Shown here: positions 23,607 to 58,804 of the stretch, one piece after another
Position numbering within the stretch: the stretch's first letter is position 1
Layout of the letters: each line of letters begins with the position of its first letter
Assembly: GCA_036172245.1 (NCBI GenBank)
Contig: JAYWIR010000059.1
Coordinates: 682,001-742,840, forward strand
Direction: 5' to 3'
DNA length: 60,840 nucleotides
Origin: Raillietiella orientalis
Lineage: Eukaryota
Position numbers and translations under genes: made by a program
The notes under the pieces: model-generated
The model's input: the letters and a program-made list of their open reading frames with translations, nothing else
Databases searched by the model: none
What the model was told of the DNA's origin: nothing

Positions 23607-26600
23607 CTGTGCTACTTTTTGTATTTTGTAAGCAATTCGAAATCACTAGATTTCACAATGCCACTGTTGCGCCTGTTCCCGACGCATGCCTTTGCCGTGA
23701 GTGGAAAATTCTACTCATGGAGAGCCCCACGGCATTCCAATTTCCTGGATTAAGAGAAATAATAAGAGTCTCACACTTCATTAGGGCGGGGGAGTCTGGA
23801 TTCAGTGTTGTTTTAATATAACCCGTGTAGGAATTAAAAAGGGAATCTTCTCCTTAGCACTGATGCCTTATGTGGTCCAAATTTGCAAACCTTTGTGTTT
23901 TGTTTTCAATTCGAGCTCAGACGATTTGACCATTCCACTGTTAAGCATCTTCCCGACGCATCCATTTGAAGTGAGTCGCAAATTCTAGTCATGGAGAGCC
24001 CCACAGCATTAGAATTTCCTGGATTGAGAGAAACATTAAGAGTCCGACACATGATTAGGGCGGGGCACTTTGGACTCTGTGTTGCTTTCATGGTAACCAG
24101 AGTCGGAATTAGAAAAGGGATATTTTCCATCTCAATGATTCATAATGTGGTCCAAATTTGCAACTTCTTGTATTTTGTAAGCACTTCGAAATCAGCAGAT
24201 TTCACAATTCAACTGTTTCACCTCTTCACGACGCATCCATATGCCGTGAGCGCCAAAATCCCGTCATGGAGCGCCCAACAGTATTCCAATTTCCCCGATT
24301 CATGGAAACGTTAAAGAGAGACCGACACTTCATTCTGGCGAGGCACTTTGGACTCTATGTGGTTTTCATAGTAACTAGAGTATGATTCGGAAAGAGGATG
24401 TTTTCATTCGCACTGCTTCATTATGCAGTCCAAATATGCGAAACTTATGTTTTGTTATCAACTTGAAATTCGACGATTTCACTATTGTCCTAATGTGCCA
24501 CTTTACGACGCATCCATTTCCACTGAATGGCAAATTACACACATGGAGAGCAAAACTGCATTCCAATTTCCTGGATTCAGAGTGACATTAAGAATCCGAC
24601 ACTTGATTAGGGAGGGGCACCTTGGAATATGCGTTGTATTCATGGTAACGAGTGCCGGAATTAGAAAGCGAATGCTTTCCTTCGCACAGATTCATTATGT
24701 AGTCCAAATTAGCAACTTTTGTGTTCTGCAATCAATTCGAAAACAGCAGATTTCACCCTTGCACTGTTCCGTCTCTTCCCGATGCAACCACTTGCAGTAA
24801 ATGGAAAATTCCCGTCATGGAAACCCGCGTAGTATTCCAATTTCCAGGATTCGGATTGACATTAAGAAGACTTCATCACTTCATACTGGCGGGGCACTTT
24901 GGACTCTGAGTAGTTTACGTGGTAACCAGTGTCGGAATTAGAAAGGGAAGTTTTTTTTTTAGTCTGATTCATTGTACGGTACAAATTTACATGTTTCGCT
25001 GGTTTGTAAACAATTCGAAATCAGATTTCACCATTTTACATTTGGGCTTTTTCACGAAGCATCCATTTGCAGTGAGTGGCAAATTCACTGAATGGAAACG
25101 CACATCACTCCAATTTCCTGGTTTCAGAGGATGATTAACAAAGTACCTACATTTCCCTATGGTGGGACACTTTGCACTCCGTGTTGTTTTCATGGCAACC
25201 AGTATCGGAATTAGAAAGGGAAATTTTTCAATCGATCTGATTCATTTTATGGTACAAATATACACCTTCTGCTGGTTTGTAATCAATTCGAAGTGAGGAG
25301 ATTTCACCATTGCATATTTGCGCTTCTTCACGAAGCATCCCTTGGCAGGGCGAGGCAATCTACCGTCATGGATCACCACACTACCTTGCGATTTCCTGGT
25401 TTCAGAGGTGGATTAAAAAAAAGTCCGACATTTCATTAGGGCGGGGCACCTTTTACTCTGTGTTGTATTGACGGCAACCAGAATCGGAATTAGAAAAGGA
25501 ATTTTTAATACGATCTGATTCACGGTATGGTACAAGGTTACATTTTTGCTGCTTTGTAATCAATTTGAAATGTGGAGATTTCAGCATTGAACTTTTGCGC
25601 TTCTTCACGAAGCATCCATTTGCAGCGAGAGGCAAACTACCGACCTGGATCATCGCATAAACATGCAATTTCCTGGTTTCAGAAGTGGATTAAGAAGAGT
25701 CCGACATTCCATTAGGGTGTGACACTTTGCACTCCGTGTTGTTTTCATTGCAACCACTGTCGGATTTAGAAATGGAATTTTTTCATTCGATCGGATTCAT
25801 TTTATGGTACAAATAAACACCTTTTGCTAGTATGTAATCAATTCGAAGTGAGGAGATTTCACCATTGCACTTTTGCGCCTTTTCACGAAGCATCCTTTGG
25901 CAGCGCGAGGCAATTTACCGTTACGGATCACCGTACTACCTTGAGATTTCCTGGTTTCAGAGGTGGATTAAGAAAAGTCCGACATTTCATTAGGACGGGG
26001 CACCATTTACTCTGTGTTGTATTCATGGCAACCAGGGTCGGAATGAGAAAGGGAATTTTTTCATTCGATCTGATTCATTTTATGGTACAAATTTACATAT
26101 TTTGCTGGTTTGTAATCAATTCGAAGTGAGGAAATTTAACCATTGCACTTTTGCGCTTTTTCACGAAGCATCCATTGGCAGCGCGAGGCAATCTACCGTC
26201 ATGGATCTTCGCCTAAACATGCAATTCCCAGGTTTCAGTGGATGATGAAGAGTCCGACGTTTCATTAGGGTGGGACACTTTGCACTCCGTGTTGTTTTCA
26301 TGGCATCGAATGTCGGAATTACAAAGGGAATTTTGTAATTCGATCTCATTCATGGTGTGCTACAAAGTTACATCATTTGCTGCTTTGTAATCAATTTGGA
26401 ATGAGGAGATTTCACCATTGCACTTTTGCGCTTCTTCACGAAGCATCCATTGGCAGCGCGAGGCAATCTACCGTCATGGATCACCGCACTACCTTGCGAT
26501 TTCTTGGTTTCAGAGGTGGATTAAAAAAACTCCTACATTTGATTAGTGCGGGGAACTTTGAATTCTGTGTTTTTTTCATGGTAACCAGAGTCAGAAATAG

Positions 26601-28483
26601 AAAGGGTATGTTTTCCTGCGATTTCATTTATTAAGGAATTCAAATTAACATCTTTTGCTGGTTTGTAATCAATTCGGAGTGAGGAGATTTCACCATTGCA
26701 CTTTTGCGCTTCTTCAAGAAGCATCCATTGGCAGCGCGAGGCAATCTACCGTCATGGATCACCGCACTACCTTGAGATTTCTTGGTTTCAGAGGTGGATT
26801 AAGAAGAGACCGGCATTTCATCAGGGTGTGACACTTTGCACTCCGTGTTGTTTTCATGGCAACCACTGTCGGAATTAGAAAGTGAATTATTTAATTCGAT
26901 CTGATTCATTTTATGGTACAAATAAACATCTCTTGCTGGTATGTAATCAATTCGAAGTACGGAGATTTCACCATTGCACTTTTGCGCATGTTCACGACGC
27001 ATAAATTGGCAGCGCGAGGCAATCTACCCTCATCGATCACCGCACTGCCTTGCGATATCCTGGATTCAGAGGTGGATTAAGAAAAGTCCAACATTTGCTT
27101 AGCGCTGGGCACTTTGTACTCTGTGTTGTTTTCTTGGCAACCACTTTCGGAATTAGAAAGGAAATTTTTTAATTCGATCTGATTAATTTTATGGTACAAG
27201 TAAACATCTTTTCCTGGTATGTAATCAATTCGGAGTGAGGAGATTTCACTATTGCACTTTTACGCTTCTTCACGAAGCATCCATTGGCAGGGTGAGGGAA
27301 TCTACCGTCATGGATTACCGCACTACTTTGCGATTTCCTGTGTTTACAGGTGGATTAAGAAGTGTGCGACGTTTCATTAGGGTGGGACACTTTGCACTCC
27401 GTGTAGTTTTCATGGCAACCACTGTCGGAATTAGAAAGTGAATTACTTAATTCGACCTGATTCATTTTGAGGTACAAAAATACATGTTCTGCTGCTTTGT
27501 AATCAATTCGAAGTGAGGAGATTTCACCATTGCATTTTTGCAGTTCTTCACGAAGCATCCATTTGCAGCGACACGCAAAGTACCGACCGGGATCAACGCA
27601 TAAACTTACAATTTCTTGGTTTCAGAGGATGATTAATAAGAGTGCCACATTTCATTAGGGATGGGCACTTTTCACTGTGTGTGGTTTTCATAACAACCAG
27701 TGTCGGAATGAGAAAGGGAATTTCTTTATTTGATCTGATTCAATGTATGGTACAAATACACATCTTCTAGTTTGTAATCATTTCCAAGTGAGCAGATTTC
27801 ACCAATGCACTTTTGTGCTTTGTCATGAAGCATCCATTGGCAGCACGAGGCAATATGCCCTCATCGATCACCGCACTGCCTTGCGATTTCCTGGATTCAG
27901 AGGTGGATTAAGAGAAGTCCAACATTTCCTTAGGGCCGAGCACTTTGTACTCTGTGTTGTTTTCATGGCAACCAGTGTCGGAATTAGAATGGAAATTTTT
28001 TAATTCGATCTGATTCATTATATAATACAAATAAACATCTTTTGCTGGTATGTAATCAATTCGGAGTGAGGAGATTTCACCATTGCACTTTTTCGCTTCT
28101 TCATAAAGCATCTATTGCCAGGGCGAGGCAATCTACCGTCATGGATCACCGCACTACCTTGCGATTTCCTGCGTTTAGAGGTGGATGAAGAACAGTCCGA
28201 CATTTCATTAGGGCGAGGCTCTTTGCACTCCGTGTTGTTTTCATGGCAACCACTGTCGGAATTAGAAAGTGAATTATTTAATTCGATCTGATTCATGGTG
28301 TGGTACAAATTTACATCTTTTGCTGGTTTGTAATCAATTCGAAGTGAGGAGATTTCACCATGCACTGTTGCGCTTCTTCACGAAGCATCCATTGGCAGCG
28401 CGAGGATATCTAGCGTCATGGATCACCGCACTACCTTGCGATTTCCTGGTTTCAGAGGTGCATTAAAAAAAGTCCGACATTTC
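23607..28483 (+). repeat. Satellite block 1 (forward polarity; diverged left edge grading into subfamily A)
   Basis: Monomers read GATTTCACCATTGCAC on +; block ends at ...AGTCCGACATTTC (28483). Confidence 0.95.
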
Positions 28484-31400
28484 GAGAAAATGAATTAGAT
28501 CGAATAAGAAAATTCCCTTACTCATTCCGGCCATGGTTGCCATGAATACAACACAGAGTACAAAGTGCCCGGCCCTAATGAAATCTCGTACTTTTTTCAA
28601 ACCACCTCTGAAACCAGGAAATCGCAAGGAAGTGCGGTGATCCATGACGGTAGATTGTCTCGCGCTGCCAATGGATTCTTCGTGAACAAGAGCAAAAGAG
28701 CAATGGTGAAATCTCCTCACTTCGAATTGATGACAAACCAACAAAAGATGTTTATTTGTACCATAAAATGAATCAGATCGAATAAAAAAATTCCCTTTCT
28801 AATTCCGAAACTGGTTGCCATGAAAACAACACGGTGTGCAAAGTGCCCCGCCCTAATGAAATGTCGGACTGTACTTAATCCACCTCTAAACACAGGAAAT
28901 CGCAAGGTAGTGCGGTGATCCATGATAGATTGCCTCGCCCTGCCAATGGATGCTTCGTGAGGAAGGGCAAAAGTGGAATGGTGAAATCTCCGTACTTCGA
29001 ATTGATTAGAAACCAGCAAAAGATGTAAATTTGGACCACACCATGAATCAGATCGAATAAAAAAATTCCCTTTCTCATTCGGAACATGGTTGCCATGAAT
29101 ACAACACAGAGTAAAAGGTGCCCCGCCCTAATAAAATGTCGGACTTTTCTTAATCCACCTCTGAAATAGAGAAATCGCAAGGTAGTGCGGTGATCCATGA
29201 CACTAGATTGCCTCGCGCTGCCAACGGATGCTACGCGAAAAAGCGCTACAGTGCATGGTCAAATCTCCTAACCTCGAATTCATTACAAACCAGCAAAAGA
29301 TGTAACTTTGAACCATACCGAAAATCAGATTGAATAAGAAAATTCCCTTTCTCATTCCGACAATGGTTGCCATGAATACAACACTTAGTAAAAGGTGCCC
29401 CACCCTAATGAAATGTAGGACTTTTTTTAATCAACCTCGGAAAAGAGCAAATCGCAAGGTAGAGCGGTGATCCATGACGGCAGATTGCCTCGCGCCGACA
29501 ACGAACACTTCGTGAAAAAGCGCAAAAGAGCAATGGTGAAATCTCACTTCGAATTCATTACATACCAGCAAGAGATGTCAATTTTCACCATAAAATGATT
29601 CAGATCGAATAAAAAAATTCCCTATCTAATTCCGAAACTGGTTGCCATGAAAACAACACGATGTGCAAAGTGTCACACCCTAATGAAATGTCGGTCTCTT
29701 CTTATTCCACCTCTGAATCCAGGAAATCGCAAGGTAGTGCGGTGATCCATGACGGCAGATTGCCTCGCCCTGCCAAAGGATGCTCCGTGAAGAAGCGCAA
29801 AAGTGCAATGGTGAAATCTCCGTACTTCGAATTGATTACTTACCAGCAAAAGATGTTTATTTCTACCATACCGTGAACCAGATCGAATAAGAAAATTCCC
29901 TTTCTTATTCCGACCCTGGTTGCCATGAATACAACACAGAGTACAAAGTGCCCGGCCCTAAGCAAATGTTGGACTTTTCTTAATCCAGCTCTGAATCCAG
30001 GAAATGGCAAAGTAGTCCGGAGATCCATTACGGTATATTGCCTCGGCCTGCCAATAGATGCTTCATGAAGGAGCGAAAAAGAGCAATGGTGAAATCTCCG
30101 TACTTCGAATTGATTACAAACCAGCAAAAGATGCAAATTTGTACCATAAAATGAATCAGATCGAATAAAATAATGTACTTTATAAATCCGAGAGCGGTTG
30201 CCATGAAAACAACTCGGAGTGCAAAGTGTCCGACCCTAATCAAATGTCGGACTTTTCTTGATCCACCTCTGAAACCAGGAAATCGCACGGTAATGCGGTG
30301 ATCCATGACGGTAGATTGCCTCGCCCTGCCAATAGATGCTTCATGAAGAAGCGAAAAAGTGGAATGGTTTAATCTCCTCACTCCGAATTGATTACAAACC
30401 AGCAAAAGATGTTTATTTGTACCATACCGTGAATCAGATCGAATAAGAAAATTCCCTTTCTTATTCCGACCTTAGTTGCCATGAATACAATACAGAGTAC
30501 AAAGCGCCCGGCCCTAAACAAATGTTGGACTTTTCTAAATCCACCTCTGAATCCAGGAAATCGCAAGGTAGTGCGGTGATCCATGACGGTAGATTGCCTC
30601 GCCCTGCCAATGGATGCTTCGTGAAGACGCGTAACAGTCCATAGTGAAATCTCCGTACTTCGTATTGATTACAAACCAGCAAAAGATGTAAATTTGTACC
30701 ATAAAATAAATCAGAGCGAATAAAAAAATTTCCCTTTCCCATTCCGACCGTGGTTGCCATGAATACAAAACAGAGTAAAAGGTGCCCCGCTCTAATGAAA
30801 TCTCGGACTTTCTGTAATCCACCTTTGAAAAGAGGAAATCGCAAGGTAGTCCGGTGATCCATTACGGTAGATTGCCTCGCGCCGCCAACGAATGCTTGGT
30901 GAAAAAGCGCAAAAGAGCAATGGTGAAATCTCCTCACTTCGAATTCATTACATACCAGCAAAAGATGTAAATTTGTACCATAAAATAAATCAGATCGAAT
31001 AAAAAAATTCCCTTTCCCATTCCGAGCCTGGTTGCCATGAATACAAAACAGAGTAAAAGGTGCCCCGCTCTAATGAAATCTCGGACTTTCTGTAATCCAC
31101 CTCTGAAAAGAGGAAATCGCAAGGTAGTGCGGTGATCCATGATGGTAGATTGCCTCGCGCTGGCAATGGATGCTTCGTGAAAAAGCGCAATAGTGCAATG
31201 GTGAAATCTCCTCACTTCGAATTGATTACAAACCACCAAAAGATGTAAATTTGTACGATAAAATGAATCACATCGAATAAGAAAATTCCCTTTCTAATTC
31301 AGAAACTGGTTGCCATGAAAACAACACGATGTGCAAAGTGTCACACCCTAATGAAATGTCGGTCTCTTCTTAATCCATCTCTGCAACTAGGAAATCGCAA

Positions 31401-34400
31401 GGTAGTGCGGTGATCCATGACGGTAGATTGCCTCGCCCTGCCGATGGATGCTTCGTGAAGAAGCTCAAAAGAGCAATCGTGGAATCCCCGTAGTTCGAAT
31501 TGATTACAAACCAGCAAAAGATGTAAATTTGTAGCATAAAATGAAGCAGATCGAATAAGAAAATTCCCTTTCTCATTCCGACCTTGGTTGCCATGAATAC
31601 AATACAGAGTAAAAGGTGCCCCACCCTAATGAAATGTTGGACTTTTTTTAATGCACCTCTGAAAAGAGGAAATCGCAATGTAGTGCGGTAATGCATGACG
31701 GTAGATTGCCTCGCGCTGCTAATGGATACTTCGTTAAGACGCGCAAAAGAGCAGTGGTGAAATCTCCTCACTTCGAATTGATTACAAACCAGCAAAAGAT
31801 GTAACTTTGAACCATACCGTGAATCAGATCGAATAAAAAAATCCCCTTTCTCATTCCGACTTCGGTTGCCATGAATACAACACATAGTAAAAGGTGCCCC
31901 GCCCTAATGAAATGTCGGACTTTTCTTAATCCACCTGTGAAACTAAAAAATCGCAAGGTAATGCGGTGATCCATGACGGTAGATTGCCTCGAGCTGCCAA
32001 TGGATACTTCGTGAAGAAGCGCAAAAGTGCAATGGTGAAATCTGCGTACTTCGAATTGATTAGAAACCACCAAAGATGTAAATTTGTACAATACCGTTAA
32101 TCAGATCGAATAAAAAAATTCCCTGTTTCATTGCGACCATGGTTGCCATGAATTCAACACAGAGTAAAAGGTGCCCCGCGCTAATGAAATGTCGGACTTT
32201 TCTTAATCCACATCTGAAACCAGGAACTCGCAAGGAAGTGCGGTGATCCACGACGGTAGATTGCCTCGCGCTGCCAATGGATGCGTCGTGAAAAAGGGCA
32301 AAAGTGCAATGGTGAAATCTCCGTACTTCGAATTGATTACAAACCAGCAAAAGATGTAAATTTGTACCATAAAATGAATCAGATCGAATAAAATAATGTA
32401 CTTTCTAATTCCGACATTGGTTGCCATGAAAACAACACGGAGTGCAAAGTGTCCCACCTTAATCAAATGTCGGACTTTTCTTATTCCACCTCTGAATCCA
32501 GGAAATCGCAAGCTAATGCGGTGATCCATGACGGTAGATTGCCTCGCCCTGGCAATAGATGCTTTATGAAGAAGCGAAAAAGTGCAATGGTGAAATCTCC
32601 TCACTCCGAATTGATTACTTAACAGGAAAAGATGTTTATTTGTACCATACCGTGAATCAGATCGAATAACAAAATTCCCTTTCTTATTCCGACCCTGGTT
32701 GCCATGAATACAACACAGAGTACAAAGTGCCCGGCCCTAGCAAATGTTGGACTTTTCTTAATCCACCTCTGAATCCAGGAAATCGCAAGGTAGTCCGGTG
32801 ATCCATGACGGTAGATTGCCTCGCCCTGCCAATGGATGCTTCGTGAAAAAGCGCAAGAGTTCAATGGAGAAATCTCCTCACATCGAATTGATTACTAAGC
32901 AACAAAAGATGTAAATTTGTACGATAAAAAGAATCAAAGGGAATTAAAAATTTCGATTTTTAATTCCGAAAGTGGTTGCCATGAAAACAACACAGAGTAC
33001 AAAGTGCCCGGCCCTAAGGAAATGTTGGAATTTTCTTAATCCAGCTCTAAACACAGGAAATTCCAAGGTAGTGCGGTGATCCATGACGGTAGATTGCCTC
33101 GCGTTGCCAATGGATGCTTCTTGAAGAAGCGTAAAAGTGCAATAGTGAAATCACCTCACTCCGTATTGATTACATACCAGCAAAAGATGTTTATTTGTAT
33201 CATGAAATGAATCAGATCGAATAAAAAAATTCCCTTTCTAAATTCGACAGTGGTTGCAATGAAATCAACACGGAGTGCAAAGTGTCACACCCTGTCGAAA
33301 TGCCAGTTTCTTCTTAATCCACCTCTGAAACCAAGAAATCGCAAGGTAGTCGGGTGATCCATGACGGTAGATTGCCTCGCGCTGCCAATGGATGCTTCGT
33401 GAAGAAGCGCAAAAGTATAATGGTGAAATCTCCTTATTTCATGTTGATTATACGCCAGCAAAAGATATAACTTTGTACCATACCGTAAATCAGATCGAAT
33501 TAAAAAATTCCCTTTCTAATTCCGAAAGTGGTTGCCATGAAAACAACACAGAGTACAAAGAGACCGGCCCTAAGGAAATGTTGGACTTTACTGAATCCAC
33601 CTCTGAATCCAGGAAATCGCAAGGCAGTCCGGTGATCGATGAGGGTAGGTTGCCTCGTGCTGCCAATGGATGCTTCATGAATAAGCACAAAAGTGCAATG
33701 GTGAAATCTCCTCACCTGGAACTGATTACAAACCAGCAGAAGATGTGTATTTGTACCATACATGGAATCAGATCAAATAAAGAAATTCCCTTTCTTATTC
33801 CGACAGTGGTTGTTATGAAAACCAGACACAGTGTAAAGTGCCCCTCCCTAATGAAATGTGGCACTCTTATTAATCATCCTCTGAAACCAAGAAATTGTAA
33901 GTTTATGCGTTGATCCGGGTCGGTAGTTTGCGTCTCGCTGCAAATGGATGCTTCGTGAAGAACTGCAATAATGCAATGGTGAAATCTCCTCACTTCGAAT
34001 TGAGTACAAAGCAGCAGAACATGTATATTTGTACCTCAAAATGAATCAGATCGAATGAATAATTTTTCTTTCTAATTCCGACCCTGGTTGCCATGAATAC
34101 AACACAGAGTAAAAGGTGCCCCGCCCTAATGAAATGTCGGGCTTTTTTTAATCCACCTCTGTAACCAGGAAATCGTAAGGTAGTGCGGTGATCCTTGACG
34201 GTAGATTACCTCGCCCTGCCAATGGATGCTTCGTGAAAAAGCGCAAAAGTGCAATTTTGAAATCTCCTCACATCGAATTGATTACAAACCAGCAAAAGAT
34301 GTAAATTTGTACGATAAAATGAATCAGATCCAATAAAAAAATTCCCTTTCGCATTCCGACCCTGTTTGCCATGAATACAACACAGAGTAAAAGGTGCCAC

Positions 34401-37400
34401 GCCCGTTAGCAGCGACGACCGGGACCGGTAGATTTCCACGCTGCCAACGGATGCTTCGTGAAGAAGCGCAAAAGTGCAATGGTGAAATCTCCGTACTACG
34501 AATTGATTACAAACCAGCAAAAGATGTAAATTTATACCATACCGTGAATCAGATCGAATTACATAATTCGCATTTCAATTCCGACAGTGGTTGCCATGAA
34601 AACAACACGGCGTGCAAAGTGACTCGCCCTAATGAAATGTCGGACTGTTCTTCATCGACCTCTAAACGAAGGGAATTGCAACGTAGTGTGGTGATCCATG
34701 CCGGTAGATTGCTTCGCACTGCCAACGGATGTTTCGTGAAAAAGCTCAAAAGTGCCAAGGTGAAATCTCCGTACTACGAATTGATTACAAAACAGCAAAA
34801 AATGTAAATTTATACCATACCGTGAATCAGATCGAATTAAAAAATTCACTTTTTTACTCCGACAGTGGTTGCCATCAAAACAACACGGAATGCAACGTGT
34901 CTTACCCTAATCAAATGTCGTACTTTTCTTAATCCAACTCTGAAACCAGGAAATCGCTAGGTGGTACGGCTTTCCATGACGGTAGATTGCCTCGCGCTGC
35001 CAACGGATGCTTCGTGAAGAAGCGCAAAAGTGCAATGGTGAAATCTCCTCACTTCGAATTGATTACAAACCAGCAAAAGATGTAAATTTGTACCACACCA
35101 TGAATCGGATCGAATTAAAAAATTCACTTTTTAACTCCGACAGTGGTTGCCATGAAAACAACACGGAGTACAAAGTGCACCGCTCTAATGAAATGTCGGA
35201 ATTTTCTTAATCCACCTCTGAAACCAGGAAATCGCATGATGGTGCGGTGATCCATGACAATAGATTGCCTCGCGCTGCCAACGGATGCTTCGTGAAAAAG
35301 TGCAAAAGTGCATGGTGAAATCTCCGTACTACGAATTGATTACAAACCAGCAAAAAATGTAAATTTATACCATACCGTGAATCAGATCGAATTACATAAT
35401 TCGCATTTCAATTCCGACAGTGGTTGCAATGAAAACAACACATCGTGCAAAGTGCCCCGCCCTAATGAAATGTCGGACTGTTCTTCATCCACCTCTAAAC
35501 GCAGGAAATCGCAAAGTAGTGTGGTGATCCGTGCCGGTAGATTTCCTCGCGATGGCAACGGATGCTTCGTGAAGAAGCGCAAAAGTGCAATGGTGAAATC
35601 TCCGTACTTCGAATTGATTACAACCCAGCAAAAGATGTAAATTTGTACCATCAAATGAATCACATCGAATTAAATAATTCACTTTCCAATTCCGATAGTG
35701 GTTGCCATGAAAGCAATACGGAGTGCACAGTGTCCCACCCTAATCAAATGTCGGACATTTCTTAATCCACCTCCGAAACAAGGAAATCGCATGATAATGC
35801 GATTATCTATGACGGTAGATTGCCTCGCGCTGCCAACGTATGTTTCGTGAAAAAGCGCAACAGTGCCATGGTGAAATCTCCTCACTTCGAATTGATTACA
35901 AACCAGCAAAAGATGTAAATTTGTACCACACCATGAATCAGATCGAATTAAATAATACACTTTCTAATTCCGACAGTGATTGCCATGAAAAAAATACGGA
36001 GTGGAAAGTGTCCCACCCTAATCAAATGTCGGACTTTTCTTAATCCACCTCTAAACGCAGGAAATCGCAAGGTAGTGTGGTGATCCTTGCCGGTAGATTT
36101 CCACGCGCTGCCAACGGATGCTTCGTGAAGAAGCGCAACAGTGCATGGTGAAATCTCCTCACTTCGAATTGATTACAAACCAGCAAAAGATGTAAATTTG
36201 TACCACACCATGAATCAGATCGAATTAAATAATTCACTTTCTAATTCCAACAGTGGTTGCCATGAAAACAACACGGAGTGCAAAGTGTCCCACCCTAATC
36301 AAATGTCGGACTTTTCTTAATCCACCTCTAAACGCAGGAAATCGCAAGGTAGTGTGGTGATCCTTGCCGGTAGATTTCCACGCGCTGCCAACGGATGCTT
36401 CGTGAAGAAGCGCAAAAGTGCAATGGTGGAATCTCCCTTCTACGAATTGATTACAAACCACCAAAAGATGTAAATTTATAGCATACCGTGAATCAGATCA
36501 AATTAAATAATTCACTTTTCAATTCCGAAAGTGGTTGCCATGACAATAACACGGAGTGCAAAGTGACTCGCCCTAATGAAATGTCGGACTGTTCTTCATC
36601 GACCTCTAAACGCAGGAAATCGCAAGGTAGTGTGGTGATCCATGCCGGTAGATTTCCACGCGCTGCCAACGGATGCTTCGTGAAGAAGCGCAAAAGTGCA
36701 ATGGTGAAATCTCCGTACTACGAATTGATTACAAACCAGCAAAAGATGTAAATTTATACCATACCGTGAATCAGATCGAATTAAAAAATTCACTTTTTAA
36801 CTCCGACAGTGGTTGCCATCAAAACAACACGGAGTGCAACGTGTCATACCCTAATCAAATGTCGGACTTTTCTTAATCCACCTCTGAAACCAGGAAATCG
36901 CATGATGGTGCGGTGATCCATGACGGTAGATTGCCTCGCGCTGCCAACGGATGCTTCGTGAAAAAGTGCAACAGTGCATGGTGAAATCTCCTCACTTCGA
37001 ATTGATTACAAACCAGCAAAAGATGTAAATTTGTACCACACCATGAATCAGATCGAATTAAATAATTCACTTTCTAATTCCGACAGTGGTTGCCAAGAAA
37101 AGAACACGGAGTGCAAAGTGTCCCACCCTAATCAAATGTCGGACTTTTCTTAATCCACCTCTAAACGCAGGAAATCGCAAGGTAGTGTGGTGATCCTTGC
37201 CGGTAGATTTCCACGCGCTGCCAGCGGATGCTTCGTGAAGAAGCGCAAAAGGCCAATGGTGGAATCTCCGAACTACGAATTGATTACAAACCACCAAAAG
37301 ATGTAAATTTATACCATATTGTGAATCTGATCGAATTAAATAATTCCCATTTCAATTCCGACAGTGTTGCCATGAAAACAACACATCGTGAAAAGTGCCC

Positions 37401-40400
37401 CGCCCTAATGAAATGTCGGACTGTTCTTCAGCCACCTCTAAACGCAGGAAATCGCAAAGTAGTGTGGTGATCCGTGCCGGTAGATTTCCACGCGCTGCCA
37501 ACGGATGCTTCGTGAAGAAGCGCAAAAGTGCAATGGTGAAATCTCCGTACTACGAATTGATTACAAACCAGCAAAAGATGTAAATTTATACCATACCTTG
37601 AATCGGATCGAATTAAAAAATTCACTTTTTAACTCCGACAGTGGTTGCCATGAAAACAACACGGAGTACAAAGTGCACCGCTCTAATGAAATGTCGGAAT
37701 TTTCTTAATCCACCTCTGAAACCAGGAAATCGCATGATGGTGCGGTGATCCATGACAATAGATTGCCTCGCGCTGCCAACGGATGCTTCGTGAAAAAGTG
37801 CAAAAGTGCATGGTGAAATCTCCGTACTACGAATTGATTACAAACCAGCAAAAAATGTAAATTTATACCATACCGTGAATTAGATCGAATTACATAATTC
37901 GCATTTCAATTCCGACAGTGGTTGCAATGAAAACAACACATCGTGCAAAGTGCCCCGCCCTAATGAAATGTCGGACTGTTCTTCATCCACCTCTAAACGC
38001 AGGAAATCGCAAAGTAGTGTGGTGATCCGTGCCGGTAGATTTCCTCGCGATGGCAACGGATGCTTCGTGAAGAAGCGCAAAAGTGCAATGGTGAAATCTC
38101 CGTACTTCGAATTGATTACAACCCAGCAAAAGATGTAAATTTGTACCATCAAATGAATCACATCGAATTAAATAATTCACTTTCCAATTCCGATAGAGGT
38201 TGCCATGAAAGCAATACGGAGTGCACAGTGTCCCACCCTAATCAAATGTCGGACTTTTCTTAATCCACCTCCGAAACAAGGAAATCGCATGATAATGCGA
38301 TTATCTATGACGGTAGATTGCCTCGCGCTGCCAACGTATGTTTCGTGAAAAAGCGCAACAGTGCCATGGTGAAATCTCCTCACTTCGAATTGATTACAAA
38401 CCAGTAAAAGATGTAAATTTGTACCACACCATGAATCAGATCGAATTAAATAATTCACTTTCCAATTCCGATAGTGGTTGCCATGAAAGCAATACGGAGT
38501 GCACAGTGTCCCACCCTAATCAAATGTCGGACATTTCTTAATCCACCTCCGAAACAAGGAAATCGCATGATAATGCGATTATCTATGACGGTAGATTGCC
38601 TCGCGCTGCCAACGTATGTTTCGTGAAAAAGCGCAACAGTGCCATGGTGAAATCTCCTCACTTCGAATTGATTACAAACCAGCAAAAGATGTAAATTTGT
38701 ACCACACCATGAATCAGATCGAATTAAATAATTCACTTTCTAATTCCGACAGTGATTGCCATGAAAAAAATGCGAAGTGCAAAGTGTCCCACTCTAATCA
38801 AATGTCGGACTTTTCTTAATCCACCTCTAAACGCAGGAAATCGCAAGGTAGTGTGGTGATCCATGCCGGTAGATTTCCACGCGCTGCCAACGGATGCTTC
38901 GTGAAAAAGCGCAAAAGTGCAATGGTGAAATCTCCGTAATTCGAATAGATTACAAACCAGCAAAAGGTGTAAATTTCTACCATAAAATGAATCAGATCGA
39001 ATTAAATAATCCACTTTCTAATTCCGATAGTGGTTGCCAGGAAGACAACACGCAGTGCAAAGTGTTCCGCCCTAATGAAATGTCGGACTTTTCTTAATCC
39101 ACCTCTGAAACCAGGAAATCGCATGATGGTGCGGTGATCCATGACGGTAGATTGCCTCGCGCTGCCAGCGGATGCTTCGTGAAGAAGCGCAAAAGGCCAA
39201 TGGTGGAATCTCCGAACTACGAATTGATTACAAACCACCAAAAGATGTAAATTTATACCATATTGTGAATCTGATCGAATTAAATAATTCCCATCTCAAT
39301 TCCGACAGTGGTTGCCATGAAAACAACACATCGTGAAAAGTGCCCAGCCCTAATGAAATGTCGGACTGTTCTTCATCCACCTCTAAACGCAGGAAATCGC
39401 AAAGTAGTGTGGTGATCCGTGCCGGTAGATTTCCACGCGCTGCCAACGGATGCTTCGTGAAGAAGCGCAAAAGTGCAATGGTGAAATCTCCGTACTACGA
39501 ATTGATTACAAACCAGCAAAAGATGTAAATTTATACCATACCGTCAATCAGATCGAATTACATAATTCGCATTTCAATTCCGACAGTGGTTGCCATGAAA
39601 ACAACACTTCGTGCAAAGTACCCCGCCCTAATGAAATGTCGGACTGTTCTTCACACAACACGGAGTGCACCGTGTCCCACCCTAATCAAATGTCGGACTT
39701 TTCTCAATCCACCTCTAAACGCAGGAAATCGCAAGGTAGTGTGGTGATCCATGCCGGTAGATTGCCTCGCCCTGCCAAAGGATGCTTCATGAAGATGCGC
39801 AATAGTGCAATGGTGGAATCTCCTCACTAAGAATTGATTACAAACCAGCAAAAGATGTAAATTTATACCATATCGTGAATCAGATGGAATTAAATAATTC
39901 ACTTTTCAATTTTGACAGTGGTTGCCATGAAAACAACGCGGAGTGCAAAGAGCCCCGCCCTAATGAAATGTCGGACTTTTCTTAATCCACCTCTGAAACC
40001 AGGAAATCGGAAGGATGTGCGGTTATCCATGACGGTAGATTGCCTCGCACTGCCAACGTATGTTTCGTGAAAAAGCGCAATAGTGCCATGGTGAAATCTC
40101 CGTACTTCGAATTGATTACAAACCAGCAAAAGATGTAAATTTATACCATACCTTGAATGAGATCGAATAAAAAAATTCACTTTTTAACTCCGACAGTGGT
40201 TGTCATCAAAACAACACGGACTGCAACGTGTCCCACCCTAATCAAATGTCGGACTTTCCTTAATCCACCTCTAAACGCAGGAAATCGCTAGGTAGTGTGG
40301 TGATCCATGCCGGTAGATTTCCACGCGCTGCCAACGGATGCTTCGTGAAGAAGCGCAAAAGTGCAATGGTGGAATCTCCGTACTACGAATTGATTACAAA

Positions 40401-43400
40401 CCACCAAAAGATGTAAACTTATAGCATACCGTGAATCAGATCGAATAAAAAATTCACTTTTCAATTCCGAAAGTGGTTGCCATGACAACAACACGGAGTG
40501 CAAAATTCCCCGCCCTAATGAAATGTCGGACTTTTCTTAATCCACCTCTGAAACTAGGAAATCGCAAGGTGGTGCGGTTATCCATGACGGTAGTTTGCCT
40601 TGCGCTGCCAACGGATGCTTCGTGAAAAAGCGCTACAGTGCATGCTGAAATCTCCTCATTTCGAATTGATTACAAACCAGCAAAAGATGTAAATTTGTAC
40701 CACACTATGAATCAGATCGAATTAAATAATTCACTTTCTATTTCCGATAGTGGTTGCCATGAAAACAACACGGAGTGCAAAGTGCACCGCCCTAATGAAA
40801 TGTCGGACTCTTCTTAGTCCACCTCCGAAACCAGTAAATCGCATGATAATGCGATTATCCATGACGGTAGACTGCCTCGAGCTGCCAACGGATGCTTCTT
40901 GAAAAAGCGCAACAGTGCATGGTGAAATCTTCTCACTTCGAATTGATTACAAACCAGCAAAAGATGTAAATTTATACCATACCTTGAATCAGATCGAATA
41001 AAAAAATTCACTTTTTAACTCCGACAGTGGTTGTCATCAAAACAACACGGAGTGCAACGTGTCCCACCCTAATCAAATGTCGGACTTTTCTTAATCCACC
41101 TCTGAAACTAGGAAATCGCAAGGTGGTGCGGTTATCCATGACGGTAGATTGCCTCGCCCTGCCAATGGATGCTTCATGAAGATGCGCAATAGTGTACAGC
41201 TTCATGTCGTGAATGTGCTACTAGCTGCAATTGGATGCTTCTTGAAGAAGCGCAAAAGTGCAATGGTGAAATGTCCTCATTTCGATTTGATTACAAACCA
41301 GCAAAAGATGTCACTTTCCACTACATAATAATTAAGATCGAAGAAAAACATTTTCTTTCCAATTCCGACAGTTGTGACTATGAAAACAACACAAAATTCA
41401 AAGTGACCCGCAATAATGAAATATTCGATTCTTTATAATCATCCTCTGAAACCAGAAAATTGAAAGGATCTGCGGTTATCCATGACGGTAGCATGCCTCT
41501 CGCTGGAAATGGATGCGTGTTGAAGTAGCGTAAAATGAAATGCTGAAATCTACTCCTTCCGAATTGATTACAAACCACGAAAAGATGGAAATTTTGACAA
41601 CATACCAATGAGATTGAAGGAAAGCTTTCCTTTCAAATTCCGACACTGGTTTCCATGAAAACAACACACAGCCCAAAGTGAGCCGCTCTAATGAAATATC
41701 GGATTCCTTTTAATCATCCTCTGAAACTAGAAAATTAAAAGGATGTGCTGTGATCCATGACGGTAGCATGCCTCTCGCTGGAAATGGATGCGTGTTGAAG
41801 TAGCGTAAAATGCAATGCTGAAATCTACTCATTCCGAATTGATTACAATCCCGCAAAAGATGAACATTTGAACCACACAATCGATCAGATCTAATGAGAA
41901 CATTCCCATTCTAATTCCTACGCTGGTTACCAAGAAAACAACACAGACTACAAAGTGCCCCGCTGTAATGAAATGGCGGACTCTTATTCATTATCCTCTG
42001 TAATCAGGAAATTGGAAGCATGGGCGGCTCCATTTCGTAAATGTGCCACTCGCTGCAATTGGATGCTTCTTGAAGAAGCGCAAAAATGCAATGGTGAAAT
42101 GTCCTCATTTCGATTTGATTACAAACCAGCAAAAGATGTAGGTTTCCACCACATAATAATTAAGATCGAAGAAAAAACATTTTCTTTCCAATTCCGACAG
42201 TTGTTACCATGAAAACAACACAAAATTCAAAGTGACCCGCAATAATGAAATATTCGATTCTTTATAATCATCCTCTGAACCCAGAAAATTCAAAGGATGT
42301 GCGGTGATCCATGACGGTAGCATGCCTCTCGCTGGAAATGGATGCGTGTTGATGTAGCGTAAAATGCAATGCTGAAATCTACTCATTCCGAATTGATTAC
42401 AAACCACGAAAAGAAGTAAATTTTCACAACATACAAATTAGATTGAAGGAAAACATTCCTTTCCAATTCCGACACTGGTTTCCATGAAAACAACACATAG
42501 TCCAAAGTGAGCCGCTCTAATGAAATATCGGATTCTTTTTAATCATCCTCTGAAACTAGAAAATTGAAAGGATATGCTGTGATCCATGACGGTAGCATGC
42601 CTCTCGCTGGAAATAATGCGTCTTGAAGTAGCGTAAAATCCAAAGCTGAAATCTACTCATTCCAAATTGATTACAAACCACGAAAACATGGAAATTTTGA
42701 CAACATACCAATGAGATTGAAGGAAAACATTCCCTTTCTAATTCCGACACTGGTTACCATGTAAACAGCACAGAGTGCAGAGTGACCCGCGCTATTGAAA
42801 TTTCCGACTCATCTTAATCATTCTCCGAAACCAGGATGTTGCTACGATGTGCGGCTCGATGTCGTGAATTTGGCACTCACTCCAAATGGCTGTTTCTTGA
42901 GTAAGCGCAAAATTGCAATGGTGAAATCTGCCCATTTCGTATCGATTACAAAGCTGCAAATAATGTAAATTTGGATCACATAATGAATGTGATCGAAGAA
43001 ATACATTTGCTTTCTAATTCCGACAGTTGTTGACATGCAAACAACACAGAGTCAAAATTGACCCGCTCTTATCAATTATTGGATTCTTTTTAATCATCCT
43101 CTGAAACTAGAAAATTGCTACGATGTGCGCTGAATCATGACGGCAGCATGCCTCTTGCTGGGAATAGATGCGAGGTGAAGTAGCGTAAAATGCAATGCTG
43201 AAATCTCCTTATTCCGAATTGATTACCAACCACGAAGAGATGGAAATTTTGACAACATACGAATGAGATTGAAGTTAAACATTCCTTTCTAATTCCGATA
43301 CTGGTTTCCATGAAAACAACACAGACTCCAAACTGACCCGCTCTAATGAAATATTCGATTCTTTATAATCATCCTCTGAAACCAGAAAATTGAAAGGATG

Positions 43401-52609: not shown

Positions 52610-52638
52610 GGATCCAGGGTAAAGTTCGACGTTTTGAA

Positions 52639-56057: not shown

Positions 56058-56173
56058 CGAATTTTTCCAGTTCAGCGCGGATGGCGTTCTCATCCATCCG
56101 CACTGTTGTCCCTGTTAAGTGGACCACAATGGAGTGGTCCACCTGTTAGGTGGACCACTCCATTGTGGTCCAC
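56058..56173. repeat. Inverted duplicate of an ORF1 segment plus a perfect 26-bp-arm palindrome
   Basis: 56058-56141 is the reverse complement of 56710-56793 (82/84). 56119-56144 and 56148-56173 are perfect inverted repeats around a GTT loop. Confidence 0.95.
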
Positions 56174-56294: not shown

Positions 56295-57908
56295 ATGCCT
56301 TTGAACGCCGCAGTTTCAGGTGAGGGAGGCGGGAAGACCGAGTCTCCCAAGCCAAAGGAGGTGGGATCACGCTTCACCACTACTTCTGAACCCGCCACTA
56401 CGGCGAGGGCCTGGAGCGCGGTAGCAGCGAAGAAAACGCCCGATGTCGCTACCGAAATACAATCCTACATACAGCAGGGCTAGAATCCGGCCCACCTGTA
56501 CAAGGTAGGAAATTTATATTCAACGTTAAGGGCGCGAAAGTTCAGCAATGCCATCAAAAAGATGGGCATTGCCGACCATGAAATTCTTTGCCTGTCAATA
56601 CGGAGAGGAGGGCAGTTGGCGGAGCTCATCTGCAAGGATGCAGCTCTTACCCACAAGATGCTCTGCACGCCCGTACAATTTGAGGGCAGGAATTTACTCC
56701 CACACACATTGGACCACTCCATTGTGGTCCACCTAACAGGGACAACTGTGCGGATGGATGAGAACGCCATCCGCGCTGAACTGGAAAAATTCGCAAGCGT
56801 TTTCGCGATGTGGAGAAAGCCCAACACCTTCGGAGTCAATGGTGCATTTAGTGGGCGAGTAGGCGTGCGCGTGACTCTTCGAGAAAGCGTACAGCTTCCC
56901 CACAAGCTCCAAATTGGCGACCAGTTCGTCGACATTTGGTTTGTGGGGAAACCTAAATTTTGTGGAAACTGTAAGTCGTTCGGGCATTTGAAAAAGCGGT
57001 GCCCGGACGCAGTTTGCCCAACGTGCGGCGCGAAGGGCCACACCAAACTGGTGTGCCCGATGAACGTCGCTCCAACGCCGGAACTTCCGCAAAAGAAGGA
57101 AGGGAAGGCAAAACTAGTAATAAACCCCACAAAAGGGGATCAGCCGTCGGCTCCGACAAAAGTCGCGCAGCAGGAAAGGGACTCGGTACAGGAGCTCCCG
57201 GAAAAGACTGCCGACGAGGAAAGCTGGCAGCTGGTCACCCGTAAAATAAAAATCCTCAAAAAAACCGCGCCCACACCGGCGAAAGTGGTGAAGGGCAAGG
57301 GGAAGGTCGCGCCACGCCCAACAATCAAAGCGTGCAGCGTGGCCATCAAACGCGTGCCGGCGATCGATACTCGCTCCGCTGACAGATCGATGCGATGTGA
57401 CGTCACGCCAGCTGTTCAAACCGCCGCCGCGCGAACGCCGACGCCGTGACAAAGTCGCGAGCCCAGCGTGAGCAGCGACGACCGGGACTTTAACAAGGCG
57501 GCGGAAGAGTTGGCAACCATGCTCCAGCAACCTCCCAATGCCCAGAAGAAGGCCTTGAGGCGTCTGGCTGAGGCGAAACGACCGGAGACTTCCGAGTCCG
57601 AAGCCGAAGCCGGCAACGCTCCGGCTGTCGCTCTCCCGAAGCGCAAAGCGGGCCGCAAGGTAGGCAACCCGCGGCGCTCCGCACCTCCACCGGCGGAGAA
57701 GGAAATGCGGTCGCACCACGACGACGGGGAGGCGAAGTCCGCGAGGTCTCGCGACTCCTCGCCGGAGACGTCCCTGGCCAAGCAGGATCCTCCAACCACC
57801 AGCACAACCACCAACGGACCGCCTCCTTGCGAGGAACAGCCCGTCGCAATGGATACACAACTCCCGCCTGCTGAACAGCAGGCGGAGGACGATAAGCAAA
57901 CACCATAA
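56295..57908 (+). pseudogene. LINE ORF1 gag-like protein (537 codons, two in-frame stops)
   Basis: ORFs 56295-56483, 56562-57449 and 57468-57908 are one frame. Two CCHC knuckles CGNCKSFGHLKKRC and CPTCGAKGHTKLVC, then a low-complexity tail. Confidence 0.88.
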
Positions 57909-58804
57909 ACCCACCAACGCGTGGACTCTCCTCCTGCCAGCGACTGCGCGTAATCTGTTGGAACGTCAACGGGTTGCGCGACGACGGCAAGAGGAGAGAA
58001 GTGGCCGCCAGCCTGCAGGACGTCGACCTGGCGGTTCTGCAGGAGACGCACGTGCTCCACGCAGGGGAGGCCCAGGAATTAGAACGGATCGCAGGCCGGC
58101 GGCTCGTATACCAAAACGGGAGAGACCGCACCCGCGGTGTGGCTTTAATGCTGAAGCCAGCCGTCGTTAATGCGCTGCGCGACGTGCACTTCCACGGGGA
58201 AGGTCAAATCGGGCAGCTTGTTGCCAAGTGGTCCGACGCGATCGACCTCGTCGTGACCAACGTGTACGCGCCCGGCACGAGCCACAGGCGCGGGGAACGC
58301 ACTGCGTTCTTCGAAGGCCTGAGGCGAGATTGGCTGGCCGAAAAAGACATCCGAAGGGCGCACCTCATTGCCGGGGACTTTAACGTCCGCCTGCTGGCAG
58401 GTGCGCCCGACATTCGCGCACAGCTGGTCAACGAGATGTGAGCTGCTATGCACGCGCGCAACCTGTTGGCCGGTGACGCCTGGACGGAGACGAGGATCGA
58501 CCACATGTTCCTCGACAACCACATGTGTTCGCGGCTGGGAAATCGAGGGGCAGTGCCATCCGAACTTTCCGACCATCCCCGGCTCGTGGTAGAAATACAC
58601 CGGCGCGGTAGAGGTCCACCTCCACAGCGTGGCGTTTGCCAGGGGACTGGTTGCGCCTCGCAGGAGCAGCGCAACATCTTCGCTCGTTCCTGCAAAGCTT
58701 CCACCTGCAGTCGCTCGCGGACTGGGACGACTTCAAGAGCTCAGGCCGCGAGTTCTGCGACCAGTTACCCCTGAACCGTCTCCCTCCAGGTTTCGGCGAT
58801 GCCA
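57905..58804 (+). pseudogene. LINE ORF2 APE endonuclease domain (stop at 58439, frameshift near 58625)
   Basis: LRVICWNVNGL...VLQETH...GVALML...TNVYAP...IAGDFN...RIDHMF...LSDH. Confidence 0.93.

What the first reader, a model, noticed from the sequence alone, without database searches (positions are those of the whole stretch)
34404..34425. 22-bp LINE ORF1-matching filler exactly at the junction of satellite subfamilies A and B
Seen: about 70 bp of the monomer is missing here and replaced by CGTTAGCAGCGACGACCGGGAC. This matches 57467-57488 (CGTGAGCAGCGACGACCGGGAC, 21/22, with an 18-bp exact core) inside LINE ORF1, 23 kb away and on the same strand. The satellite variant type changes at this point. 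Inference: either a templated insertion during break repair, or the scar of a LINE that inserted in the array and was almost wholly deleted. Either would link the LINE family to satellite turnover.
Basis: partly seen in the sequence, partly recalled or inferred. Interest (0 to 1): 0.75.

Follow-up and report, generated by a model that had tools for sequence, protein, structure and literature searches.

The report
LINE-derived filler at satellite rearrangement junction
A 20-letter piece copied from a nearby jumping gene (a LINE) seals a broken-and-rejoined spot in a tandem satellite repeat, most likely one end of a 5.9-kb flipped segment; it is a real but ordinary kind of DNA-repair scar.

Summary
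34404-34425 matches 57467-57488 on the same strand at 21 of 22 bases, with 18 exact. Null 22-mers never exceeded 15. It is the only stretch of 12 bases or more that does not match the 278-bp monomer anywhere in the 29-kb array.

The donor-like site lies in a non-LTR retrotransposon ORF1. The frame is open through it, and a 472-aa relative aligns across it. The variant type changes exactly here, though A and B are close sub-variants.

The new point is that the "missing" 70 bp are not lost. HMM positions 211-278 lie inverted at 28416-28483, at the other end of block A, and only TAAT is absent. So the junction is probably one end of a 5.9-kb inversion (about 0.6) rather than a plain deletion.

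Best reading: breaks rejoined without homology, and one joint was patched with 20 nt copied or captured from LINE DNA or cDNA. A LINE insertion later deleted down to 20 nt is less likely.

No reads or whole genome could be used. This is a known kind of repair scar, of modest interest.

The parts
34404..34425 (+). Filler. The 22-nt match to LINE ORF1 covers 34404-34425. 34405-34424 (20 nt) is unambiguously foreign. The C at 34404 and the C at 34425 could each belong to the satellite or to the LINE (1-nt overlaps).
57467..57488 (+). Donor-like site in LINE ORF1 (codons 328-335, SVSSDDRD). It differs from the filler by G instead of T at 57470, which is a synonymous GTG/GTT Val change.
56484..57905 (+). 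Non-LTR retrotransposon ORF1 frame of 474 codons. It has two CCHC knuckles and one in-frame TGA at 57447-57449. It is the only ORF1 copy in the window.
57896..58438 (+). Apurinic-type endonuclease domain of the same element (start of ORF2). The element is broken off after about 58.8 kb, and no RT of this copy is in the window.
34199..34404 (+). Truncated A-type monomer, HMM positions 1-206, ending in GCCC.
28416..28483 (-). Partial monomer, HMM positions 211-278, in inverted orientation at the other end of block A. It complements the truncated monomer at 34199-34404; only TAAT (positions 207-210) is absent from both.
28484..28486 (.). Head-to-head joint between the (-) block R1 and the (+) block A. 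At most 3 nt (GAG) are unassigned. Proposed partner junction of the inversion.
28487..34404 (+). Block A, 21 heterogeneous monomers plus the partial first monomer. Proposed inverted 5.9-kb segment.
23616..28483 (-). Block R1, satellite in inverted orientation. Its six leftmost units (23616-25086), next to the non-satellite flank, are the most degenerate: 0.63-0.72 mean identity to each of blocks A-D.
34426..41199 (+). Block B, 24 more homogeneous monomers plus a 58-bp end. It includes recent duplications (35258 and 37756 are 100% identical). It starts at HMM position 1, directly after the filler.
34439..34450 (+). Satellite stretch whose reverse complement matches 34403-34414 at 11 of 12 bases. 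A possible fold-back component of the first filler bases, or chance.

Best explanation
The 20-22 nt are a patch of LINE ORF1 sequence at a joint made without homology in a 278-bp satellite array.

Shown:
- The patch is foreign to the satellite.
- It matches the LINE far beyond chance.
- The LINE frame is intact through the donor-like site, so the patch is a copy and not a moved piece.
- Each side of the patch shares at most 1 nt with its neighbour.
- The joint links an older, heterogeneous block (A) to a younger, homogenised block (B).

Inferred, about 0.6: the joint is one of the two junctions of a 5.9-kb inversion of block A. One break split a monomer between HMM positions 206 and 211. Its two halves now lie at 34404 and, inverted, at 28483, and only TAAT was lost. 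The other break fell at a head-to-head (-)(+) meeting of arrays, which is a quasi-palindrome centre and so a likely site of breakage. End joining sealed the first joint with 3 nt or fewer of extra sequence (28484-28486). It sealed the second joint with the LINE patch.

Inferred and not resolved here, roughly 55:45: the patch was either copied from chromosomal LINE DNA nearby by template switching or synthesis-dependent repair (the copy at 57.5 kb is 23 kb away on the same strand), or it was captured from a LINE cDNA or RNA-templated fragment made elsewhere. The single G/T difference is either a later mutation or a mark of another donor copy.
For: - The match is 21 of 22 with 18 exact, the only 2 hits in the window, and 0 of 100 shuffles reached 2 hits.
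- Null longest matches were at most 15 in 2000 and at most 14 in 2000, against 18 observed.
- Among 110 monomer hits across 23616-52620, the only unmatched gap of 12 bp or more is 34406-34425. The next largest gaps are 8, 8 and 7 bp.
- No k-mer of the filler of 10 nt or more occurs elsewhere in the window except in the LINE.
- The ORF1 frame is continuous through the site. Relative P0004 (472 aa) aligns over query residues 60-402, through the site, at 38% identity and E 1e-57. Relative P0012 carries zf-CCHC and RVT_1. An endonuclease domain follows directly. The window holds a single ORF1 copy.
- The variant switch falls exactly at the joint.
- For the inversion: the halves complement each other, HMM 1-206 at 34199-34404 and HMM 211-278 inverted at 28416-28483.
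- For the inversion: r27589 and m33643 are 94% identical, while each is 83% or less to all other monomers. Their neighbours are colinear at 0.86, 0.94 and 0.87, and this is the best of 32 diagonals.
- For the inversion: 13 of 36 private shared variants fall in two colinear pairs, which would sit 5 monomers apart in the reconstructed array.
- The right end of the array shows the same pattern. D ends at HMM 156 and the inverted R2 runs from HMM 90 to 161.
- Known precedents: class 2 templated sequence insertions (PMC5110952, abstract and section 9); distant templated insertions and short fold-back inversions at breaks (PMC11724301, abstract); donors enriched within 100 kb and in transcribed loci (bioRxiv 10.1101/2022.09.30.509517, abstract).
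Against: - No read or second-haplotype support could be obtained. The one run found has no cover over 34350-34429, and no genome is held.
- The copy number of the LINE family is unknown, so the nearness of the donor-like copy cannot be weighed.
- The inversion is not proven. With all 6 candidate start-type ends counted, a 4-bp complement has about a 10% chance (my estimate).
- A distance-decay test across the proposed old joint gave rho +0.098. The inversion model predicts a negative value. The effect is tiny, although the nearest bin had the highest residual, +0.0077.
- Apart from the two top pairs, private variants show no trend (P 0.21, or 0.32 without the top pair).
- The inversion model needs an earlier head-to-head junction and a break exactly at it.
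- Overlaps of 1 nt are less than polymerase priming usually uses. This fits ligation of a ready-made fragment as well as it fits copying.
Confidence: 0.72

Rival explanations
1. A plain deletion inside a continuous + array (72 bp plus any whole number of 278-bp monomers), sealed with the same LINE-derived filler. In this reading the inversion junction at 28484 is an unrelated event: R1 itself was flipped, with its outer break at the array edge. The fit between positions 206 and 211 is then chance.
For: The net loss of phase is 51 bp, a 227-bp unit. R1's own end (HMM 90-99) and A's start (HMM 116-120) are roughly contiguous. The last monomers of A are the most divergent of the block, with mean identity to A of 0.779-0.816. 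The distance-decay test had the sign this model predicts (rho +0.098).
Against: It leaves the 4-bp complement of the two half monomers to chance, about 2% for the single natural partner. Its own contiguity is loose, with 17-30 bp lost. It places the 94% pair about 34 monomers apart and puts the six most degenerate monomers inside the old array.
Confidence: 0.2
2. The scar of a LINE insertion. A 5'-truncated copy of this LINE entered the array by target-primed reverse transcription, or at a break. Later deletion removed everything except 20 nt of ORF1, along with satellite DNA.
For: The fragment is in sense orientation, and its left edge could be a 5' truncation point with 1-nt microhomology. 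LINE fragments of at least two families crowd the right flank of the array. Endonuclease-independent L1 insertions with target deletions are known (PMC1920257, abstract and section 11).
Against: There is no poly(A), no LINE 3' end and no target-site duplication. At least two events are needed, with a deletion edge only 20 nt from the LINE's 5' junction. No other LINE-like sequence lies in the array.
Confidence: 0.08
3. No LINE is involved. The filler was made by local polymerase stutter or fold-back synthesis (theta-type end joining), and its likeness to the LINE is chance.
For: 34403-34414 matches the reverse complement of 34439-34450 at 11 of 12 bases. Only 1 of 300 random LINE 22-mers placed there did as well. 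GACCGG occurs twice in tandem at 34417-34428.
Against: An 18-nt exact match within 60 kb was never approached by the nulls. The hairpin is unremarkable: -12.1 kcal/mol, z -1.67, and 11 of 200 shuffles fold as well. A simple fold-back from the right end would put the inverted copy next to the right flank, not 24 nt away (my reasoning). At most the first 3 nt (GTT) need this source.
Confidence: 0.03
4. Assembly artefact: a false join of two satellite blocks.
For: The joint coincides with a change of block type. No reads could be laid across it.
Against: A false join does not create 20 nt of LINE coding sequence between two monomers. R1 and A are not mirror images, so this is not a fold-back chimera.
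Confidence: 0.04

Closest known systems
Class 2 templated sequence insertions: DNA patches from distant loci at repaired double-strand breaks (Onozawa and Aplan, PMC5110952; abstract and section 9 read)
   Same: The inserted sequence matches a distant genomic site. There is no target-site duplication and no poly(A). The junction has the features of non-homologous end joining, with loss of sequence and 0-1 nt of microhomology. The donor is left intact.
   Different: The patch here is only 20 nt. It sits in a satellite array and probably at an inversion breakpoint. The donor is a LINE coding region 23 kb away on the same chromosome. An RNA origin, proposed for that class, is not shown here.
Endonuclease-independent (non-classical) L1 insertions at breaks (Sen et al. 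2007, PMC1920257; abstract and section 11 read)
   Same: LINE sequence without endonuclease hallmarks, associated with loss or rearrangement of target DNA. Short extra pieces from elsewhere occur at junctions (4-312 bp in that study).
   Different: Those loci carry a recognisable L1 body, whereas here only 20 nt of internal ORF1 remain. The LINE belongs to another family in another organism. I did not read the size range of their L1 segments.
Templated insertions and fold-back inversions at breaks in yeast and human cells (Yu et al. 2024, PMC11724301, abstract; Min et al. 2022, bioRxiv 10.1101/2022.09.30.509517, abstract)
   Same: Very short inserts (about 5-34 bp). Inserts come from distant loci, donors are enriched within 100 kb and in transcribed regions, and there is a link with inversions.
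   Different: Those are experimental or somatic events. This is a fixed or segregating germline scar. The enzymes involved cannot be inferred from sequence.
Replication-based template switching (FoSTeS/MMBIR), in which breakpoint insertions are copied from nearby sequence (recalled from memory; no paper read here)
   Same: An inversion together with a short insert templated by sequence tens of kb away on the same chromosome.
   Different: Microhomology at the two edges is only 1 nt. No duplication or triplication accompanies the inversion.

Membership tests
Templated or captured filler at an end-joining junction (class 2 TSI-like) | The insert matches another genomic site beyond chance. | tested here: met
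   18 nt exact and 21 of 22. Nulls reached at most 15 and at most 14, in 2000 trials each.
Templated or captured filler at an end-joining junction (class 2 TSI-like) | No target-site duplication, no poly(A), and little or no microhomology, with loss of target sequence. | tested here: met
   The flanks GCCACGCCC and CGGTAGATT share no repeat. There is no A-run. The overlaps are 1 nt. Model positions 207-278 are absent at the joint.
Templated or captured filler at an end-joining junction (class 2 TSI-like) | The donor site is left intact, so the insert is a copy and not a transfer. | tested here: met
   The ORF1 frame is open and homologous through 57467-57488.
Templated or captured filler at an end-joining junction (class 2 TSI-like) | An empty (pre-event) allele exists. 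| not testable with these tools
   No genome is held. The single run found gives no cover of the joint.
Classical target-primed LINE insertion | The LINE's 3' end with its tail is present and flanked by target-site duplications. | tested here: not met
   The fragment is internal ORF1 only. There is no tail and no duplication.
Local theta-type templated insertion (template within the flanks) | The insert is copied from sequence within about 100 bp of the break. | tested here: inconclusive
   No flank k-mer of 10 nt or more matches the filler. However, 34403-34414 is an 11-of-12 inverted match to 34439-34450, matched by 1 of 300 nulls. This covers at most the first 10 filler bases and cannot explain the 18-mer.
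Non-LTR retrotransposon (the donor element) | An ORF1 with CCHC knuckles, followed by an ORF2 that begins with an apurinic-type endonuclease, then a reverse transcriptase. | tested here: inconclusive
   The knuckles are below Pfam's cut-off in this copy (zf-CCHC_6, 18.2 bits against a cut-off of 22). Relative P0004 scores zf-CCHC at 29.9 bits. Exo_endo_phos scores 47.4 bits directly downstream. The RT of this copy is not in the window. Relative P0012 carries RVT_1.
Simple two-break inversion (block A) | Two junctions whose four ends pair up into two continuous ancestral sequences. | tested here: inconclusive
   One pairing is tight: HMM 206 and 211, with only TAAT lost. The other pairing cannot be checked, because it would be an older head-to-head joint. 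Support from the 94% colinear pair is moderate. The distance-decay test gave no support.

The most novel reading that the evidence does not exclude
Breaks in this satellite, especially at the quasi-palindromic centres where inverted blocks meet, are repeatedly healed with sequence supplied by an active or transcribed LINE next to the array, as cDNA or by template switching. LINE-derived patches would then mark many block boundaries across the genome's arrays and could be used to date rounds of array reshuffling. The equal 4-bp losses at the two inner inversion breakpoints (TAAT at the left, and apparently TCCG at the right) might point to a nuclease that makes a 4-nt stagger.
Probability: 0.08. 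Interest if true: 0.55.

Novelty: new member of a known kind. Interest (0 to 1): 0.3.

Why it matters
The scar gives a base-level view of how one satellite array was rebuilt. Blocks are joined by breaks and end joining, not only by unequal crossing-over. One such joint carries a datable tag of foreign sequence.

If the inversion reading is right, the case is also a warning. A "deleted" piece of a repeat unit may simply lie inverted a few kb away, so phase bookkeeping across all irregular joints should come before any claim of deletion.

As a phenomenon it adds an example to a known class. It does not show that LINEs drive satellite turnover.

Tried and rejected
- Whole-genome search for the 18-mer: no genome is held for this window.
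- Read support: one run was found with a 0.12 share of words. Of its contigs, 88 were laid on 34280-34550. They cover only conserved satellite parts and give zero depth over 34350-34429. This says nothing either way about the joint.
- Other copies of the ORF1 C-terminal part: word-indexed protein searches with the 152-aa segment found nothing among longer proteins or among proteins of similar length.
- Earlier scan notes: nothing by place or by sequence.
- Literature search for a 278-bp satellite: one unrelated hit.
- Searches for "satellite DNA" plus "filler DNA" (5 papers) and for satellite, templated insertion, monomer and retrotransposon together (2 papers): judging from the listings only, none describes a LINE-derived filler at a satellite block boundary.
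- A single large inversion of all the + blocks (A to D), and a mirror-image fold-back duplication at 28484: rejected because the phases do not fit (my reasoning).
- A first misreading of a BLAST table suggested that R1's end aligned to the filler joint. On re-reading, those alignments are bounded only by the query end and by register breaks.
- Scanning prokaryote or metagenome collections for the 18-mer was not done. About 17 chance hits are expected in 596 Gb, so it would say nothing about this genome.
- The LINE clade was not determined.
Full report
**The observation.** The window holds a 278-bp satellite from 23616 to 52620, followed by a cluster of broken non-LTR retrotransposons. At 34404-34425 the sequence reads CGTTAGCAGCGACGACCGGGAC. 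At 57467-57488 it reads the same except for G in place of the fourth base. The 18-mer AGCAGCGACGACCGGGAC occurs exactly twice in the window at up to 2 mismatches, both times on the + strand, and 0 of 100 shuffles gave two hits. As a stricter null I measured the longest exact match of 22-mers to the whole window on both strands. For 2000 permutations of the filler the maximum was 15 (once). For 2000 second-order Markov 22-mers with LINE composition the maximum was 14 (twice). The observed value is 18. The match is not chance.

**Is the filler foreign to the satellite?** I built a profile of the monomer from 86 + strand units and scanned the window without filters. There were 112 hits. Two were noise outside the array (E above 1), and 110 tile 23616-52620. 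Between successive hits, the only gap of 12 bp or more is 34406-34425 (20 bp). The next largest gaps are 8, 8 and 7 bp. The monomer at 34199 aligns to model positions 1-206 and ends in GCCC at 34404. The next monomer starts at position 1 at 34426. So 72 model positions are replaced by 20 nt, plus one C on each side that either partner could supply. No word of the filler of 10 nt or more occurs anywhere else in the window except in the LINE.

**What is the donor-like site?**
- The frame 56484-57905 (+) is open for 474 codons apart from one TGA at codon 322.
- It carries two CCHC knuckles. The Pfam zf-CCHC_6 score is 18.2 bits, below that model's cut-off of 22.
- It overlaps the start of a frame with an Exo_endo_phos endonuclease domain (47.4 bits).
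- Read through with X at the stop, it found 174 proteins at E of 1e-3 or better among 1.84 billion representatives, 3 of them at E of 1e-30 or better.
- One of these, P0004 (472 aa), aligns over residues 60-402 at 38% identity (E 1e-57). The alignment runs straight through the stop and through residues 328-335 (SVSSDDRD), which the 22-mer encodes, and a conserved F-x-KA-x-E-x-L follows directly.
- A weaker relative, P0012, carries zf-CCHC and RVT_1.

The 22-mer is therefore an ordinary part of a LINE ORF1, and the satellite is the recipient. The one difference (GTG in the LINE, GTT in the filler) is synonymous. I read nothing into that. The window holds only this one ORF1 copy. The element is cut off after the endonuclease, and no RT of this copy is present.

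**Does the variant type change here?** Yes, but the two types are close. Mean pairwise identity is 0.829 within 28648-34425 (A), 0.877 within 34426-41199 (B) and 0.823 between them. Both are about 0.73 to the blocks further right. A leave-one-out log-odds score is positive for 20 of 21 A monomers (the exception is -4.3) and negative for 24 of 24 B monomers. It jumps from +51.7 to -84.6 across the filler. The best unsupervised change-point within A+B is just before 34426, with a score of 0.0327 against 0.0298 for the next candidate. Average-linkage clustering does not split A from B at up to six clusters. B contains recent duplicates: 35258 and 37756 are 100% identical, and 34980 and 37478 are 97% identical.

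**The array is a patchwork.** Five joints are irregular:
- a head-to-head inversion at 28484;
- the filler joint;
- a 54-bp internal duplication at 39654;
- an out-of-register joint at 41199/41208 (position 58 to about 271);
- a tail-to-tail inversion at 51861-51868.

Only the filler joint carries foreign sequence.

**Where are the missing 70 bp?** The (-) block R1 ends at its right with a partial monomer, 28416-28483, which covers model positions 211-278 in inverted orientation. The truncated monomer at the filler joint covers positions 1-206. The two pieces complement each other, and only TAAT (207-210) is absent from both. They lie at the two ends of block A.

The simplest reading is that A (5.9 kb) is an inverted segment of a once continuous (-) array made of R1 plus A. 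One break fell inside that monomer. The other fell where the (-) array met the + array head to head. Such a meeting point is a quasi-palindrome centre and a plausible site of breakage; that last step is my inference from general knowledge. One new joint (28484-28486) has 3 unassigned nt or fewer. The other carries the LINE patch.

The right end of the array shows the same pattern. Block D ends at position 156. The inverted block R2 runs from position 90 at the joint to position 161 at the flank. An 8-bp overlap, TTTGTAAT, lies at 51861-51868.

**Evidence on the inversion beyond phase.**
- The odd monomer at 33643, which is 81% or less identical to every other + monomer, is 94% identical to the (-) monomer at 27589, which is itself 83% or less to all others.
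- Their neighbours are colinear at 0.86, 0.94 and 0.87. This diagonal is the best of 32, with mean 0.845 and best run of four 0.876.
- Of 36 variants private to exactly one A and one R1 monomer, 9 and 4 fall in these two adjacent pairs. In the reconstructed array the pairs would be direct repeats 5 monomers apart, which is a typical short-range duplication.

Against the inversion:
- Residual identity between A and R1 monomers does not fall with reconstructed distance. Spearman rho is +0.098, whereas the model predicts a negative value. The effect is under 1% identity, although the nearest bin has the highest residual.
- Without the top pairs, the private variants show no trend (P 0.21, and 0.32).
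- If all six start-type ends in the array are counted as possible partners, a 4-bp complement has about a 10% chance. For the single natural partner the chance is about 2%.

The rival, in which R1 itself was inverted and the filler joint is an independent deletion, needs a looser contiguity (positions 90-99 to 116-120) and leaves the tight contiguity to chance. I put the inversion of A at about 0.6 and this rival at about 0.2.

**How did the patch get there?** The two edges share only 1 nt with their neighbours. There is no target-site duplication, no A-tail and no LINE 3' end. That fits end joining with a filler, which is a known class:
- class 2 templated sequence insertions (PMC5110952, abstract and section 9);
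- endonuclease-independent L1 insertions, with extra pieces of 4-312 bp and target deletions (PMC1920257, abstract and section 11);
- very short fold-back and distant templated insertions at breaks (PMC11724301, abstract);
- donors enriched within 100 kb and in transcribed loci (bioRxiv 10.1101/2022.09.30.509517, abstract).

Whether the template was the LINE copy 23 kb away or a cDNA or RNA from another copy cannot be settled without the genome. A matching copy inside the same 60 kb favours cis if the family is small, and says little if it is large.

A full LINE insertion later trimmed to 20 nt needs at least two further events, and I give it about 0.08.

**An unexplained detail.** 34403-34414 (CC plus the first 10 filler bases) matches the reverse complement of 34439-34450 at 11 of 12 bases. 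Only 1 of 300 random LINE 22-mers put in the filler's place did as well. The hairpin itself is unremarkable: -12.1 kcal/mol, z -1.67, and 11 of 200 shuffles fold as well. The geometry does not fit a simple fold-back from either end. It could explain the GTT that departs from the LINE, or it could be chance noticed after the fact.

**What could not be done.** No genome is held. The one public run found shares 12% of sampled words. Its 88 laid contigs cover only conserved satellite parts and none covers the joint. Protein word searches with the ORF1 tail found nothing. Earlier scan notes held nothing.

**Verdict.** This is a genuine LINE-derived filler at a repair joint, probably an inversion breakpoint. 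It is one more example of a known kind of scar. It does not by itself tie the LINE family to satellite turnover.

Noticed in passing
window 51861-52620 and 51713-51868: The terminal 0.76 kb of the array (R2) is inverted. Block D ends at model position 156. R2 runs from position 90 at the joint to position 161 at the flank. An 8-bp overlap, TTTGTAAT, lies at the joint, and about 4 bp (TCCG) appear to be lost. The pattern is the same as at block A.
   Followed up: partly
window 41142-41207: The B-to-C block boundary is an out-of-register joint (model position 58 to about 271) with 8 poorly matching bases and no foreign filler.
   Followed up: partly
window 39423-39753: A 332-bp unit in which model positions 179-231 occur twice, a 54-bp internal duplication. 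This unit is the closest relative (95%) of the first B monomer, the one directly after the filler.
   Followed up: no
window 56058-56141 versus 56710-56793, and 56119-56173: An 84-bp piece of the LINE ORF1 is repeated in inverted orientation (97.6% identical) about 570 bp upstream, beside a 55-bp near-palindrome. It may be a 5' inversion of the element or another repair scar.
   Followed up: no
window 53157-54565 versus 59337-60747: Two (-) strand LINE 3' parts (RT C-terminus and zf-RVT) are 75% identical to each other, while + strand endonuclease domains lie at 55065 and 57896. The right flank is a nest of old LINE fragments from at least two families.
   Followed up: partly
window 42590-46175: Block C has a higher-order period of 5 monomers (about 1.38 kb). 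Units five apart are 95-98% identical, while neighbouring units are 71-85%.
   Followed up: no
window 23616-25086 and 51861-52620: The degenerate (-) monomers at the left edge of the array resemble the (-) monomers at the right edge (0.75-0.89, the highest value over only 89 bp) more than they resemble any + block. This may be the remains of an older (-) array that was split by the central blocks.
   Followed up: no
window 28139-28414: The first full monomer of R1 next to the inversion joint is 95% identical to B-type monomer 36091 and 92-93% to three other B monomers. The homogenised B type may therefore have been seeded from this neighbourhood.
   Followed up: no
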